Part shown: positions 22,635 through 31,508 of the stretch, one piece after another | Numbering within the stretch: the first letter of the stretch is position 1 | Layout: every line of letters begins with the position of its first letter | Sequence record: PP328843.1 | Origin: Escherichia phage 215Ecol030PP | Direction: 5' to 3' (one strand) | DNA length: 64,000 bases | The notes under the pieces: model-generated | Told to the model about the DNA's origin: nothing | Seen by the model: the letters and a program-made list of their open reading frames with translations, nothing else | Databases searched by the model: none | Program-made: the position numbers and the translations under genes

Positions 22635-22898
22635 TTATTTTAACGTTCGCCAAATTTTTACTGCTTCACGGCGAGATACTTCTACAGCTCCAAGTTCTAC
22701 AGCTTTTTGGCGTCGGCGAGCGTGTAAGTCATAATGTTTAATGCGTTTATCTTGAAACCAAGAACGTTTCATTCCTATTGCTTCTGCCATTTCATGAAGC
22801 TCTTCAATATCTCCATCAGTGAACATATGACAATTTTTAGTTGGATGACCGCGAAGTTTCCATCCATGATTCATTAAAACATCTACGTAAACTGTCAT
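22635..22898 (-). CDS. hypothetical protein (87 aa)
   Basis: ORF. Confidence 0.5.
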   Translation of the reverse strand: MTVYVDVLMNHGWKLRGHPTKNCHMFTDGDIEELHEMAEAIGMKRSWFQDKRIKHYDLHARRRQKAVELGAVEVSRREAVKIWRTLK

Positions 22899-23168: not shown

Positions 23169-23654
23169 TTATTCCATTTCTATTATATGCATGTTCTTTT
23201 TGCTATCAAAATATATGTTTTTAACTGTTAACTCCGAATTAATTGGCAATAAAAACTCTCTTTCATAATCTACCATACAAAGGTTATCATAAAGCTTGTT
23301 AAGCTTATCATCGTCAGTTTGGCCAGATTCTTCAACTGCGATTAAATTTTCTAAAATGTCAATCATAGCAGTCGAATAGTCAAAAACGTTTGCATTTTTT
23401 AACACTACTAAAACATTAGTCATATAGCGTTCTGCAGCAAACGTTTCAGCTATATGAGACTCACTGCTAAAGGAAGTTATTCTTTTAAATTTGATTCTCC
23501 TATTAACTTCAAACTTATAAGATAGTACTTCCTCTATTGTAAGTCCTCTAAAAAGCACGTCTTTAATCTCAAGTTTGTCTTTAATGTAATCATTAACACG
23601 CTTATGATTAAAATCATTAATTTTGTTGCCAAGGCATTGCATTAAAATATGCAT
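23169..23654 (-). CDS. hypothetical protein with ADP-ribosyltransferase-like R-S-E motif pattern (161 aa)
   Basis: Ordered motifs VLFRG (Arg), SFSSES (Ser-rich strand), DYEREF (ExE) with spacing seen in R-S-E ADP-ribosyltransferases; motif-level only. Confidence 0.35.
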   Translation of the reverse strand: MHILMQCLGNKINDFNHKRVNDYIKDKLEIKDVLFRGLTIEEVLSYKFEVNRRIKFKRITSFSSESHIAETFAAERYMTNVLVVLKNANVFDYSTAMIDILENLIAVEESGQTDDDKLNKLYDNLCMVDYEREFLLPINSELTVKNIYFDSKKNMHIIEME

Positions 23655-27315: not shown

Positions 27316-27331
27316 CGGTAAAATGAAAAAA

Positions 27332-27347
27332 GTCTCCCGAAGGAGAC
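27332..27347 (-). promoter_or_regulatory. C(UUCG)G hairpin
   Basis: GTCTCCcgaaGGAGAC palindrome. Confidence 0.55.
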
Positions 27348-27352
27348 TAATG

Positions 27353-28887: not shown

Positions 28888-29073
28888 TTAAAGCGTATTC
28901 ACATAAGCTATTAATTCGTTTTCTTTCTTATCAAACCGATCAGCAAATTCTTCTTGCTGTTCGGGAGATAGCGGGCCGTATTCATCATAAAAGGTGTTTG
29001 CTTCTGTATGCTCATCTAGAAGTTCATGGATAAGCTCAAACAATTTGTCTTTTTGTTCTTTGCTTAGGCTCAT
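28888..29073 (-). CDS. hypothetical small protein (61 aa)
   Basis: ORF. Confidence 0.45.
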   Translation of the reverse strand: MSLSKEQKDKLFELIHELLDEHTEANTFYDEYGPLSPEQQEEFADRFDKKENELIAYVNTL

Positions 29074-29239
29074 ATATTAATTTCCAGAAGTTTTAAAATA
29101 ATTCGCTTTTGCTTAAATATTTCCACAGTTAAATGATCAGTATCTTTTTGACCAATTCCAATGGCAAAACCTTTATTAACAGCGAGTTCAATTAAATTAT
29201 CAAGTTCACGTAACACTTCATATTGTAACTCAGAACTAT

Positions 29240-29467
29240 TCATTTCGGTTTACCTTCTTTAACGAAATCTGGATAAGGATAAAATCCCGAATAAAATCCT
29301 TCACCTTTATGATTGATGCATCCTTTATTAGAACAATAGCACCAATAATCGAAATCACAAGCCATTTCATCATTACATAAAGCAAAAACAACAGGCCATT
29401 TACACTTTTCACAATGGGCATTTTTAAGAATACTAGTTTGGCTCATAACCATGTAACCTTTAAGCAA
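29240..29467 (-). CDS. cysteine-rich small protein (75 aa)
   Basis: ORF with 9 Cys (CEKCKW...CNDEMACDFDYWCYCSNKGC). Confidence 0.45.
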   Translation of the reverse strand: MLKGYMVMSQTSILKNAHCEKCKWPVVFALCNDEMACDFDYWCYCSNKGCINHKGEGFYSGFYPYPDFVKEGKPK

Positions 29468-29655
29468 TATTCTTCTACATGTTGTTTACGACCTTTCTTA
29501 TCAATAAAGGTATATTCAACGAATGTTCCAATGTAGTCTTTATCTACATCATGTGGACTATTAATTGGACATTTAGTACGGCAAATGCGTTCCCATTGAC
29601 GAATAATTTCCACTTTGTTTTTAGGATCAAACGGATGTGGGTAATGTACTTTCAT
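29443..29655 (-). CDS. hypothetical small protein (70 aa)
   Basis: ORF. Confidence 0.45.
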   Translation of the reverse strand: MKVHYPHPFDPKNKVEIIRQWERICRTKCPINSPHDVDKDYIGTFVEYTFIDKKGRKQHVEEYCLKVTWL

Positions 29656-30106
29656 AATCCACCACTATTAAATCAATATCAGGAGTAAACATGTCGATTA
29701 ATTTAGAAACCTTATCCCAATCGCCGCCAGCAATACCACAACCTATGCGTGGAATGTAAATTACTGGTTTAAACAAAAGGGTTTCTGCCTGTAGATTTAA
29801 TTCTATCATGCAGTTTACTAAAGCACCATAATCAAGATTAGGACCTGGTTCGTATTGCGTATACAGGTTATAGCATATACCAAAACCATTAGGTTTATGT
29901 TTAAAAACAATAGACATATCGCCTAATTTATCACGAGAACCGTACTCAGTAGTGGTTTTATCTATTTCTAAAATTTTGGGATAGGCTCTTGCTAATTGAC
30001 CAGCTACACCTGAACCCATAGTATGAAAACAATTGCACCCGTGCGCAATAATATTACCTTGAAGAAATAGGGCGACAATATCGCCCTTGATATATTTTAC
30101 AATCAT
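29627..30106 (-). CDS. macrodomain protein (ADP-ribose binding/processing)
   Basis: 159-aa ORF with macro signatures NIIAHGCNCFHTMGSGVAGQL and glycine-rich GCGIAGG loop. Confidence 0.6.
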   Translation of the reverse strand: MIVKYIKGDIVALFLQGNIIAHGCNCFHTMGSGVAGQLARAYPKILEIDKTTTEYGSRDKLGDMSIVFKHKPNGFGICYNLYTQYEPGPNLDYGALVNCMIELNLQAETLLFKPVIYIPRIGCGIAGGDWDKVSKLIDMFTPDIDLIVVDYESTLPTSV

Positions 30107-30444
30107 CTAGTACTCAATCCTCGATTATAAGAATCTACCAAACGGTCAACCATTGAATGACAAGCGGCTTTATCTTTCTCCTCCGCAACTGAACATTCTA
30201 AGGTATTCCACTTTTTAGCATATCGTTTTAATAAAGTATCATTTTTGTATCTGCTTGATTTATCTCTTTCTCCGTCTTTATATGCATATATTAATTTCTG
30301 CGCAAATTCAGCTTGGCATGCTTTATTTTTCCCGCAATAATCCGCTGCAGTACGGTTTACATACTCTCTAATTTCAGTATATGATGTATCTGCTAACGCA
30401 GAAAATGAAATTAATCCTATACATAAAACCAAAATTTTAGTCAT
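30103..30444 (-). CDS. small secreted protein (113 aa; positional equivalent of T4 vs, identity tentative)
   Basis: N-terminal signal peptide MTKILVLCIGLISFSALA. Confidence 0.45.
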   Translation of the reverse strand: MTKILVLCIGLISFSALADTSYTEIREYVNRTAADYCGKNKACQAEFAQKLIYAYKDGERDKSSRYKNDTLLKRYAKKWNTLECSVAEEKDKAACHSMVDRLVDSYNRGLSTR

Positions 30445-30982
30445 TTACTATTTCCAAAAGTTTATTATTTTTAAGGTAATTAGCCTTTTCTAGGACTTCA
30501 GAAGCATATTTAGAACCAGCTTTAACATTCCATCCCGAATTATAAGAGGATATTGCTTTTCTTATATCGCCCTTATGTATATTTAACCAATAAGAAAGTT
30601 CAATGTACGCCCAGGAAGCTGAATTGGATCGTTTATTCAACATTCTTTTTATTTCAGCATCGGTCATATTATAACCAAGTTCCTTAACTCTTGCTCGCAT
30701 AGTAGGCAAATAATTTTGGAACATTCCATAAGCGTGATGCTTTGGTTTAGATTTTAAATTAACTCCGCCAGAGCTTTCTTGCCATAAAATAGCAGCCATT
30801 ATATGACCTAATCCGCTCTTGTGGATATTTTTGTGTGTTTTATATTTTCCATCCTTAGAAAATTGTTCCCCGAATTGATACGCGTAACGCATGTTATCGA
30901 GTTGGACATTACTGAAAGTATGCTCGGAGCTATGTGCCATCATTGAAATGGCCAATAGACCAGCGAGTAGTGCTTTTCTCAT
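30437..30982 (-). CDS. secreted lytic transglycosylase-like protein
   Basis: Signal peptide MRKALLAGLLAISMMAHS; SLT-domain motifs LWQESSGG, YGMFQN, SYNSGWN. Confidence 0.55.
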   Translation of the reverse strand: MRKALLAGLLAISMMAHSSEHTFSNVQLDNMRYAYQFGEQFSKDGKYKTHKNIHKSGLGHIMAAILWQESSGGVNLKSKPKHHAYGMFQNYLPTMRARVKELGYNMTDAEIKRMLNKRSNSASWAYIELSYWLNIHKGDIRKAISSYNSGWNVKAGSKYASEVLEKANYLKNNKLLEIVND

Positions 30983-30989
30983 GTTTACC

Positions 30990-31451
30990 TCATTGAGTTT
31001 TAATTACTGCTTTAGAAGCCTTTCCTGGTAAACGACGACTGTTGATAATTGCCATCCTACATTGAAGTGACGGGTCTTTGAACTTCGCGTTAGGTTTACA
31101 AACTGTAAATCCAAGCCAAAGATTTCCATCTGTGATTTCTAAACGTCCAGGACGATATTCAACTCCATCAATAAAATCCTCATCAATGTCAGGACGCGGA
31201 GGCATACTCAGGAATTCATTAACTTCTAAAACATGGTCTTTTATTTTATGGAATAATTCAAAAACGTATGTCTCATCAATCTCCCGTTGAATTGCGCGAT
31301 CAAGAAGATGTTGAGAATATTTTAGATGAAACGATGAGACTCCTGCTGCTTTTGATGCCTCACGAATCTCATTGTTAATTTGACGAAACTCCGACTCAAA
31401 GTGACGACGAAGCTTATTTCGACGGATAAAAACTTCTGTATTGATAGTCAT
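30990..31451 (-). CDS. regB: endoribonuclease RegB
   Basis: 153-aa ORF in T4 regB position; length equals T4 RegB. Confidence 0.8.
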   Translation of the reverse strand: MTINTEVFIRRNKLRRHFESEFRQINNEIREASKAAGVSSFHLKYSQHLLDRAIQREIDETYVFELFHKIKDHVLEVNEFLSMPPRPDIDEDFIDGVEYRPGRLEITDGNLWLGFTVCKPNAKFKDPSLQCRMAIINSRRLPGKASKAVIKTQ

Positions 31452-31478: not shown

Positions 31479-31508
31479 ATTATACCACAGTCAAGAGGAA
31501 AAGTAAAC
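31479..31508 (-). promoter_or_regulatory. T4-type early promoter upstream of regB
   Basis: Minus strand GTTTAC, 18-nt spacer, TGGTATAAT. Confidence 0.6.

What the first reader, a model, noticed from the sequence alone, without database searches (positions are those of the whole stretch)
29627..30106. Macrodomain protein in the tk-regB interval
A 159-aa macrodomain (ADP-ribose binding or hydrolysing) is encoded between tk and vs. Phage macrodomains can reverse host ADP-ribosylation-based defences or process NAD-derived signals. Together with the ART-like ORF at 23169..23654 it hints at an ADP-ribosylation writer/eraser pair.
Basis: partly seen in the sequence, partly recalled or inferred. Interest (0 to 1): 0.4.

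Follow-up and report, generated by a model that had tools for sequence, protein, structure and literature searches.

The report
T4 Tk.4/AdfM-type phage macrodomain gene
This is a real macrodomain gene, the counterpart of phage T4 gene tk.4, which a 2025 preprint showed protects T4 against the bacterial DarTG2 DNA-ADP-ribosylating defence, so the finding is correct but already known.

Summary

The window is a T4-like Tequatrovirus. The gene lies between vs and the tk.3 homologue, exactly where T4 has tk.4, long annotated "phosphatase, A1pp motif". A November 2025 preprint renamed T4 tk.4 adfM: its knockout sensitises T4 to DarTG2. The most likely function is removal of DarT2-made ADP-ribose from thymidines in phage DNA.

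Three details go beyond the annotation:
- **Divergent allele.** The protein is only 57% identical to T4's, although the flanking genes are 97-99% identical in DNA.
- **Active site.** An invariant Gln84 replaces the catalytic Lys of DarG and TARG1, as in Streptomyces SCO6735.
- **Second characterised relative.** The family also contains Vibrio phage Gary Adpp (38% identity), a proven ADP-ribose-1''-phosphate phosphatase. A second or alternative activity cannot be excluded.

The proposed writer/eraser pairing with ORF 23169..23654 is not supported. That ORF is a ModB-like ADP-ribosyltransferase, but it is rare, absent from T4, and probably arginine-specific.

The parts
29627..30106 (-). Macrodomain gene (159 aa), positional orthologue of T4 tk.4 / adfM
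30029..30043 (-). Codons for H22-G-C-N25-C26, the first active-site loop. H22 corresponds to SCO6735 His24, and N25 to SCO6735 Asn27 and DarG N22.
   Evidence: H22, G23, N25 and C26 are invariant in 51 family members. Codons read from the sequence. Roles of the equivalent residues.
30008..30016 (-). Codons for G31-S32-G33, the GxG ADP-ribose-binding loop. S32 occupies the position of SCO6735 Lys34.
   Evidence: G31 is near-invariant and G33 invariant. Position 32 is Ala or Ser in all 51 sequences. Alignment to BT1257 'WGKGF'.
29855..29869 (-). Codons for N80-L-Y-T-Q84. Gln84 occupies the position of the catalytic Lys of TARG1 (K84) and DarG (K80), and of the essential Gln85 of SCO6735.
   Evidence: N80, Y82 and Q84 are invariant. 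The profile alignment places Q84 on TARG1 K84 and on the BT1257 Gln. Equivalence of K84, K80 and Gln85.
29717..29752 (-). Codons for P119-R-I-G-C-G-I-A-G-G-D-W130, the phosphate-binding loop. A126 occupies the position of TARG1 D125, and G124 corresponds to SCO6735 G128.
   Evidence: P119, G122, G124 and W130 are invariant. The same motif is PRIGCGLAGGTW in SCO6735 and PRIGCGLAGGKW in BT1257.
29627..29986 (-). Divergent allelic block (codons 41-159), only 57.8% nucleotide identity to T4
   Evidence: Alignment A1 and per-segment identities. By comparison tk is 97.6%, vs 96.8% and vs.1 99.3% identical.
30103..30444 (-). vs (valyl-tRNA synthetase modifier), the upstream neighbour. Its stop codon overlaps the macrodomain ATG.
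29443..29655 (-). tk.3 homologue (DUF7202), the downstream neighbour. It overlaps the macrodomain 3' end by 29 nt.
31479..31507 (-). Best sigma-70-like promoter match (TTTACT-17-TATAAT with TG) upstream of regB. It is a candidate start of the transcription unit that contains the gene.
   Evidence: Consensus scan only. Overall, promoter-like sites are not enriched over shuffled sequence.
27331..27348 (-). Terminator-like hairpin followed by a T-run, downstream of the rI.-1 homologue. It is a candidate end of the unit.
   Evidence: A terminator is annotated at the same place in phage R5505.

Best explanation
The gene encodes a small stand-alone macrodomain enzyme, the allelic counterpart of T4 Tk.4 (AdfM). 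It is made as part of the regB-vs-tk gene cluster.

Proposed mechanism: the host toxin DarT2 (of the DarTG2 system) attaches ADP-ribose to thymidines in single-stranded phage DNA and blocks replication. The phage macrodomain binds the ADP-ribose moiety in its Gly-rich cleft (GxG and PRIGCGIAGGDW loops). It hydrolyses the ribose-C1''-to-thymine bond, restoring normal DNA and releasing ADP-ribose. It thereby acts as an orphan antitoxin.

Catalysis is inferred to follow the SCO6735 mode, not the DarG/TARG1 mode. There is no nucleophilic Lys. An invariant Gln84, held by Asn25, positions the distal ribose for attack by water.

What is shown here: the fold, the conserved residues and the orthology by position. 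What is shown by others for T4: the knockout phenotype. What is inferred: the enzymatic step, both for T4 and for this 57%-identical allele.
For: - **Orthology.** The gene sits in the same slot between vs and tk.3 as T4 tk.4. It is 57% identical with E 1e-69, and the flanks are 97-99% identical.
- **Function of the orthologue.** tk.4 was the single transposon-screen hit on a DarTG2 host, and a clean knockout sensitised T4 to DarTG2 (bioRxiv 10.1101/2025.11.20.689424). T4 lacking adfA and adfN remained DarTG2-resistant, which had predicted such a factor.
- **Chemistry is plausible with Gln.** SCO6735 has Gln85 at the Lys position, cleaves DarT-modified thymidine faster than DarG, and is dead as Q85A/E and nearly dead as N27S. 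The same Gln, Asn, His and Gly residues are invariant in 51 family members.
Against: - No enzymatic assay exists for T4 Tk.4 or for this allele. The preprint itself infers hydrolysis only by analogy.
- This allele is only 57% identical to the tested one.
- The DNA-positioning lysines of SCO6735 are not both conserved: Lys34 corresponds to Ser/Ala32 here. The protein is acidic (pI 5.25, against 8.4-8.9 for BT1257 and TARG1).
- A 38%-identical relative with the same active-site residues, Gary Adpp, is a proven ADP-ribose-1''-phosphate phosphatase.
- The DarG NCBIfam model scores 27.8 bits against a cut-off of 250.
Confidence: 0.7

Rival explanations
1. Its main substrate is the small molecule ADP-ribose-1''-phosphate, as the old 'A1pp phosphatase' annotation says. 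It would convert this product of RES-type NAD+ cleavage (aRES defence), or of RNA 2'-phosphate removal, into ADP-ribose, like phage Adpp and yeast Poa1p. This could also be a second activity of the same active site.
For: - Gary Adpp (KNV71_gp137) is 38% identical to the window protein and 35% to T4 Tk.4. It shares H22, CNC, MGxG, D49, N80-x-Y-x-Q84 and PxIGCGLAGGDW.
- Purified Adpp converts ADPR-1''P to ADPR.
- Poa1p is among the best PDB matches.
- T4 tk.4 and PHROG 335 are annotated 'phosphatase'.
- Both reactions break a bond at ribose C1'' (inference).
Against: - Adpp is useful only together with Adps and Namat (NARP1), which flank it in Gary and Athena. Here the neighbours are vs and tk.3.
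- Adps homologues listed for Escherichia phages were in genomes of about 87 kb and 147 kb, not in Tequatrovirus-sized genomes (a sampled listing, not exhaustive). T4 has no NARP1 genes (my own knowledge of the T4 gene list).
- The only phenotype reported for T4 tk.4 is DarTG2 sensitivity.
Confidence: 0.2
2. It is the eraser for ADP-ribosylation written by the phage itself. The writer would be the ModB-like ORF at 23169..23654, or Alt/ModA/ModB.
For: ORF 23169..23654 is a ModB-like ADP-ribosyltransferase with R36, S61-x-S63 and E131-x-E133 conserved against SP18 ModB. Phage genomes often carry both ARTs and macrodomains.
Against: - Distribution does not match: 43 records carry the ART ORF, against 281 and 2773 for the macrodomain, and T4 lacks the ORF.
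- The two genes are 6 kb apart and not adjacent.
- R-S-ExE enzymes of this type modify arginine (my own knowledge). Characterised relatives of this class act on thymidine-, Glu/Asp- or phosphate-linked ADP-ribose. An Arg-specific macrodomain (MavL) is described as a separate type (title).
Confidence: 0.05
3. It protects mainly without catalysis, by binding and blocking DarT2 or by sequestering ADP-ribosylated sites. The allelic diversity would then reflect co-evolution with DarT2 variants.
For: Catalytically dead SCO6735 Q85A inhibits DarT in vitro, more strongly than DarG K80A or TARG1 K84A. The gene body is replaced by a 58%-identical allele between near-identical flanks.
Against: Every residue needed for catalysis in SCO6735 that could be mapped is invariant across 51 divergent homologues. 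That pattern is expected for an enzyme. The DarG macrodomain alone does not inhibit DarT when inactive. The neighbouring tk.1/tk.2 segment is also mosaic, so cassette exchange here need not be specific to this gene.
Confidence: 0.05

Closest known systems
Phage T4 Tk.4 = AdfM (anti-DarT factor Macrodomain), NP_049723, bioRxiv 10.1101/2025.11.20.689424
   Same: Same genomic slot between vs and tk.3. Same length class (155 versus 159 aa). 57% identity, with the N-terminal 40 residues nearly identical. All family-invariant residues are shared.
   Different: The gene body (codons 41-159) is only 58% identical in DNA, while the flanks are 97-99% identical. The C-terminus is 4 aa longer and overlaps tk.3 by 29 nt instead of 4 nt. 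This allele has not been tested.
Streptomyces coelicolor SCO6735 (PDB 5E3B) and Bacteroides BT1257 (PDB 2FG1/2AFC): Gln-type ALC1-like macrodomains
   Different: The window protein lacks the roughly 6-residue longer 'mobile loop' that defines that subclass. Lys34 corresponds to Ser/Ala here. The protein is acidic rather than basic. Identity is 26-29%.
Vibrio phage Gary Adpp (KNV71_gp137), ADPR-1''-phosphate phosphatase of NARP1-AP
   Same: 38% identity and the same invariant residues, including Gln84. Also a phage counter-defence protein of about 158 aa.
   Different: Adpp sits between Adps and Namat and has a 7-residue longer loop after the Gln. Its shown substrate is a small molecule and its target is aRES, not DarTG2.
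DarG antitoxin macrodomain (T. aquaticus 5M31/5M3E, M. tuberculosis 5M3I)
   Different: No catalytic Lys80 (Gln instead). No C-terminal DarT-binding domain and no adjacent darT. The NCBIfam DarG score is far below cut-off.
PhiKZ gp104, also named AdfM (Cell Rep 2026, PMC13309987)
   Same: A phage stand-alone macrodomain that counters DarTG2. In vitro it removes DarT2-made ADP-ribose from DNA.
   Different: Only about 23% identical. It carries a DarG-like T-K-x-x-W motif, so it appears to be Lys-type. The register of the alignment in this strand is uncertain. It is probably an independent acquisition that shares only the name.
Yeast Poa1p (PDB 6LFQ) and human TARG1/OARD1 (PDB 4J5S)
   Different: The TARG1 Lys84/Asp125 dyad is replaced by Gln84/Ala126. 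Both are cellular proteins with other roles.

Membership tests
Macrodomain superfamily (Pfam PF01661) | Profile HMM score above the curated gathering threshold | tested here: met
   33.1 bits against a cut-off of 22, E 6.2e-8, covering profile positions 2-117 of 118.
Macrodomain superfamily (Pfam PF01661) | Three-layer alpha/beta/alpha fold with a central mixed sheet | tested here: met
Macrodomain superfamily (Pfam PF01661) | Gly-rich ADP-ribose-binding loops (GxG after strand 2, second Gly-rich loop) and the conserved Asn | tested here: met
   G31-x-G33, G122-C-G124-I-A-G-G and N25 are invariant or near-invariant in 51 homologues.
T4 Tk.4/AdfM orthologous group | Position between vs and tk.3 in a Tevenvirinae genome | tested here: met
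T4 Tk.4/AdfM orthologous group | Full-length sequence homology to T4 Tk.4 | tested here: met
   57% identity over 155 aa without gaps, E 1e-69.
T4 Tk.4/AdfM orthologous group | Confers resistance to DarTG2 | not testable with these tools
   Shown only for T4 itself, by knockout.
DarG antitoxin (NCBIfam NF048014 equivalog) | Score above the curated cut-off | tested here: not met
   27.8 bits against a cut-off of 250.
DarG antitoxin (NCBIfam NF048014 equivalog) | Catalytic lysine (TaqDarG K80) | tested here: not met
   Invariant Gln84 at the aligned position.
DarG antitoxin (NCBIfam NF048014 equivalog) | C-terminal DarT-binding domain and an adjacent darT gene | tested here: not met
   The protein is 159 aa with a single domain. 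Its neighbours are vs and tk.3.
SCO6735/BT1257 subclass of ALC1-like macrodomains | Gln in place of the catalytic Lys, with the supporting Asn27, His24 and Gly128 equivalents | tested here: met
   Q84, N25, H22 and G124 are invariant.
SCO6735/BT1257 subclass of ALC1-like macrodomains | Mobile loop about 5 residues longer than in DarG and TARG1 | tested here: not met
   BT1257 has a 6-residue insertion relative to the family profile after the Gln, while TARG1 aligns without a gap. Some family members, and Adpp, do carry an insertion there.
SCO6735/BT1257 subclass of ALC1-like macrodomains | Lys34 and Lys89 that position the DNA | tested here: not met
   The Lys34 equivalent is Ser/Ala32 in all 51 sequences. 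The Lys89 equivalent could not be mapped reliably.
SCO6735/BT1257 subclass of ALC1-like macrodomains | Hydrolysis of thymidine-linked ADP-ribose on DNA | not testable with these tools
   Biochemical assay needed.
Adpp / Poa1p-type ADPR-1''-phosphate phosphatase | Sequence homology to a characterised enzyme, with shared active-site residues | tested here: met
   38% identity to Gary Adpp with shared invariant residues. Poa1p gives E 1e-9 to 1e-15.
Adpp / Poa1p-type ADPR-1''-phosphate phosphatase | Location inside a NARP1 operon (Adps-Adpp-Namat) | tested here: not met
   The neighbours are vs and tk.3. Compare the Gary and Athena operons.
Adpp / Poa1p-type ADPR-1''-phosphate phosphatase | ADPR-1''P phosphatase activity | not testable with these tools
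   LC-MS assay needed.

The most novel reading that the evidence does not exclude
The Gln-type phage macrodomain family (T4 AdfM, Gary Adpp, and more than 2700 phage homologues) could be one broadly specific 'C1'' cleaver'. The same active site would both strip DarT2-made ADP-ribose from thymidine in DNA and dephosphorylate the ADPR-1''-phosphate made by RES-type NADases. A single small gene would then counter two unrelated NAD+-based defences. The cassette-like allele replacement seen here would tune substrate preference or evade a host factor.
Probability: 0.25. Interest if true: 0.5.

Novelty: already known. Interest (0 to 1): 0.2.

Why it matters
On its own the finding matters little. The gene is the well-annotated T4 tk.4 macrodomain, and its role against DarTG2 was reported for T4 in 2025.

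It is useful as a worked example of three points:
- Two phage proteins now both called AdfM (T4 Tk.4 and PhiKZ gp104) seem to use different catalytic residues, Gln versus Lys.
- T4-type AdfM is a close relative of the ADPR-1''-phosphate phosphatase Adpp. Annotation by homology alone cannot decide between 'DNA de-ADP-ribosylase' and 'phosphatase'.
- T-even phages carry very different alleles of this gene between nearly identical flanks.

Each point can be tested with simple assays.

Tried and rejected
- **SCO6735 (5E3B) residue-by-residue alignment.** I queried the PDB with the C-terminal 109 aa. Only the PRIGCG loop aligned. The Gln equivalence therefore rests on the TARG1 and BT1257 alignments plus the published equivalence.
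- **PhiKZ gp104 alignment.** MAFFT and hhalign put the T-K motif two residues out of register with T-Q, in a low-confidence stretch. The Lys-type assignment of gp104 is therefore an inference from its DarG-like TKxxW motif.
- **CmdTAC paper and the NAD-ADPr virus survey.** Neither says anything specific about tk.4.
- **Bacterial homologue P0090 (Pelagimonas).** It is a stand-alone chromosomal gene with no darT or NARP1 nearby, so it gave no functional clue.
- **PDB sequence search with the 161-aa ART-like ORF.** No meaningful hit.
- **Adpp mutated residues.** The residues mutated by Osterman et al. are not named in the held text.
- **tblastn of Gary Adps/Namat against the window.** This failed because loci L002 and L007 were not exported to the sandbox. 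Absence of NARP1 from this phage therefore rests on the sampled listing and on knowledge of the T4 gene list.
- **Unused resources.** The representative-protein search, metagenome scans and RNA tools were not needed.

Full report
**Observation**

The ORF listing shows an ATG-initiated ORF of 159 aa at 29627..30106 on the minus strand. Its start codon overlaps the stop codon of the upstream ORF at 30103..30444, and its last 29 nt overlap the start of the downstream ORF at 29443..29655. All genes in the neighbourhood are on the minus strand. Megablast of 29000..31000 finds 726 phage records, the best at 99% identity. All are T4-like Tequatrovirus phages of Escherichia, Shigella and Citrobacter. 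In these records the ORF is annotated 'hypothetical protein', 'phosphatase' or 'macro domain protein'. The stated coordinates, length and location between tk and vs are correct.

**It is a macrodomain**

- Pfam Macro (PF01661) scores 33.1 bits against a cut-off of 22.
- PHROG 335 'phosphatase' gives E 1e-71.
- The sequence alone hits PDB macrodomains: BT1257 (1e-10), yeast Poa1p (1e-9), SCO6735 (8e-8), M. tuberculosis DarG (2e-5) and TARG1 (8e-3) (chain 5M3I is identified as DarG).
- A 51-sequence family profile raises these hits to between 1e-19 and 1e-10.
- An AlphaFold2 model built on that alignment has mean pLDDT 94.4.

The protein therefore belongs to the ALC1-like/TARG1/DarG/Poa1p branch of macrodomains, not the MacroD or viral nsP3 branch.

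**It is the counterpart of T4 tk.4**

In the T4 reference genome the gene between vs and tk.3 is tk.4 (NP_049723). It is annotated 'phosphatase; contains A1pp phosphatase motif'. The window protein is 57% identical to it over its whole length, with E 1e-69.

The DNA alignment shows a mosaic pattern:

| Segment | Nucleotide identity to T4 |
|---|---|
| tk | 97.6% |
| vs | 96.8% |
| vs.1 | 99.3% |
| tk.3 homologue | 91.5% |
| macrodomain codons 1-40 | 86.7% |
| macrodomain codons 41-159 | 57.8% |

The tk.1/tk.2 segment is also replaced, and it contains an extra zinc-binding-domain ORF. This is therefore a distinct allele of tk.4 sitting in a recombination-prone stretch. By tblastn, 281 phage records carry this allele at 95% identity or more, and 2773 records carry some homologue.

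**What is known about the function**

A bioRxiv preprint of November 2025 (10.1101/2025.11.20.689424) screened a T4 transposon library on a DarTG2 host. It found tk.4 as the single hit and showed that a clean knockout sensitises T4 to DarTG2. It renamed the gene adfM. Hydrolysis of ADP-ribose from DNA was proposed there by analogy with DarG and was not assayed.

Earlier work had shown that T4 lacking adfA and adfN (gene 30.3, a NADAR enzyme specific for DarT1-modified guanosine) is still DarTG2-resistant. That result predicted a further factor. [quoted passage not shown]

**Active-site analysis done here**

Invariant positions in 51 homologues spanning 38-79% identity are G8, H22, G23, N25, C26, G33, A35, D49, N80, Y82, Q84, P119, G122, G124 and W130.

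The profile alignment to TARG1 places Q84 on the catalytic K84 and A126 on D125. The alignment to BT1257 places Q84 on its Gln. So the Lys/Asp dyad of TARG1 and the Lys of DarG are absent.

This is the situation described for Streptomyces SCO6735, which is 54% identical to BT1257:
- Gln85 sits at the Lys position.
- Q85A and Q85E are inactive, and N27S is nearly inactive.
- The enzyme removes DarT-made ADP-ribose from thymidine faster than DarG does.
- A water-mediated mechanism was proposed.

The equivalents of SCO6735 His24, Asn27, Gln85, Gly126 and Gly128 are invariant here. The PRIGCG[LI]AGGxW loop is shared.

Differences from SCO6735/BT1257:
- The longer 'mobile loop' that defines that subclass is missing.
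- Lys34 corresponds to Ser/Ala32 here.
- The protein is acidic, with pI 5.25.

My reading is that the protein works like SCO6735 (Gln-type hydrolysis of thymidine-linked ADP-ribose). It is not a member of the DarG family in the strict sense: the NCBIfam DarG score is 27.8 against a cut-off of 250, there is no C-terminal domain, and there is no darT neighbour.

**A second characterised relative**

A bioRxiv preprint of January 2026 (10.64898/2026.01.28.702374) describes Adpp, a Poa1p-like Macro protein of Vibrio phage Gary. It is encoded between Adps and Namat. The purified enzyme converts ADP-ribose-1''-phosphate, the product of the aRES NADase, to ADP-ribose.

I retrieved that gene (KNV71_gp137). 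It is 38% identical to the window protein and 35% to T4 Tk.4. It shares the H-x-CNC, MGxG, D49, N-x-Y-x-Q and PxIGCGLAGGDW elements.

The family therefore contains one member with genetic evidence for countering DNA ADP-ribosylation and another with biochemical evidence for a small-molecule phosphatase activity. Both have the same apparent active site. Both reactions break a bond at ribose C1'', so dual activity is chemically reasonable. This is an inference.

For the window gene, two things favour the DarTG2 role: orthology by position with T4 tk.4, and the absence of NARP1 neighbours. Adps homologues in Escherichia phages appeared in genomes of about 87 kb and 147 kb rather than T4-sized ones, in a sampled listing.

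PhiKZ gp104 is also named AdfM and was shown in vitro to de-ADP-ribosylate DNA. It is only about 23% identical and has a DarG-like T-K-x-x-W motif. The two 'AdfM' proteins are probably independent recruits.

**The writer/eraser suggestion**

ORF 23169..23654 is on the minus strand and 161 aa long.
- It matches PHROG 832 'RNA polymerase ADP-ribosylase' at E 9e-24.
- It is 32% identical to SP18 ModB, with the Arg (LFRG), Ser-x-Ser (TSFSS) and Glu-x-Glu (EREF) motifs conserved.

It is therefore a plausible ADP-ribosyltransferase. It lies, together with a DUF4031 ORF, in an insertion between the nrdC.10 and nrdC.11 homologues that T4 lacks. Close orthologues occur in only 43 phage records, T2 among them.

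The distribution, the 6-kb distance and the likely arginine specificity of ModB-type enzymes (my own knowledge) all argue against a dedicated pair. Characterised relatives of this macrodomain class act on thymidine, Glu/Asp or phosphate linkages.

**Expression context**

The best promoter-like match on the minus strand lies upstream of regB (31507..31479). A terminator-like hairpin lies after the rI.-1 homologue (27348..27331). This fits one transcription unit covering regB to rI.-1. These are consensus matches only, and promoter-like sites are not enriched over shuffled sequence.

**Verdict**

The gene is already known, both as a long-annotated T4 gene and, since late 2025, as an anti-DarTG2 factor. 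The added value here has three parts: the Gln-type active site, the kinship with Adpp, and the mosaic allele. Interest is low (0.2). The most novel reading still open is a dual-substrate counter-defence enzyme (probability about 0.25).

Noticed in passing
window 23169..23654 (-) and 22635..22898 (-): A 161-aa ModB-like ADP-ribosyltransferase (R36, S61-x-S63, E131-x-E133 intact; 32% identical to SP18 ModB) and an 87-aa DUF4031 protein form an insertion of about 1.1 kb between the nrdC.10 and nrdC.11 homologues. T4 lacks this insertion. Close orthologues occur in only 43 phage records, including T2. Target and function are unknown.
   Followed up: partly
window 28888..29467 (-): The tk.1/tk.2 segment is replaced relative to T4 (43-60% nucleotide identity, many gaps). 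It holds three small ORFs: a DUF7438 protein, a 57-aa ORF with no family, and a phage zinc-binding-domain protein (PF23895) that has no counterpart at this position in T4.
   Followed up: partly
window 30069..30087 (both strands): A perfect 7-8 bp GC-rich hairpin (AGGGCGACAATATCGCCCT) lies 20-38 nt inside the macrodomain coding region. The terminator scan scores it on both strands. It is identical in T4. It could affect translation or mRNA processing, or be chance.
   Followed up: no
window 29627..29655: The macrodomain gene overlaps the tk.3 homologue by 29 nt, against 4 nt in T4. This is linked to a 13-nt deletion relative to T4 just after the tk.3 start codon.
   Followed up: partly
window about 30395 (within vs, 30103..30444): vs carries a 6-nt (two-codon) deletion relative to T4 in its signal-peptide-like N-terminal region (113 aa against 115 aa).
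   Followed up: no
L006 (Vibrio phage Athena) 2632..5638; L007 (Vibrio phage Gary) 201..3231: The Adps-Adpp-Namat operon is conserved at 92-100% identity in 49 Thalassavirus records. Its macrodomain is a 38-39% identical homologue of the window protein, with the same Gln-type active site.
   Followed up: yes
phage database hits: Homologues of the window macrodomain occur in Felix O1-like (~87 kb), Pakpunavirus (~92 kb) and rV5-like (~150 kb) phages. The same groups also carry Prs-like Adps homologues. Many family members outside T4-like phages may therefore be Adpp rather than AdfM.
   Followed up: partly
PhiKZ gp104 sequence (PMC13309987): The chimallivirus protein named AdfM has a DarG-like T-K-x-x-W motif, whereas T4 AdfM has T-Q-[YF]-x-P-G. 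The same name appears to cover two mechanistically different macrodomain lineages.
   Followed up: partly
L003 6001..6459 (Pelagimonas phthalicica chromosome): A 40%-identical bacterial homologue is a stand-alone chromosomal gene with no darT, NARP1 or prophage genes nearby. In this it resembles the orphan SCO6735.
   Followed up: partly
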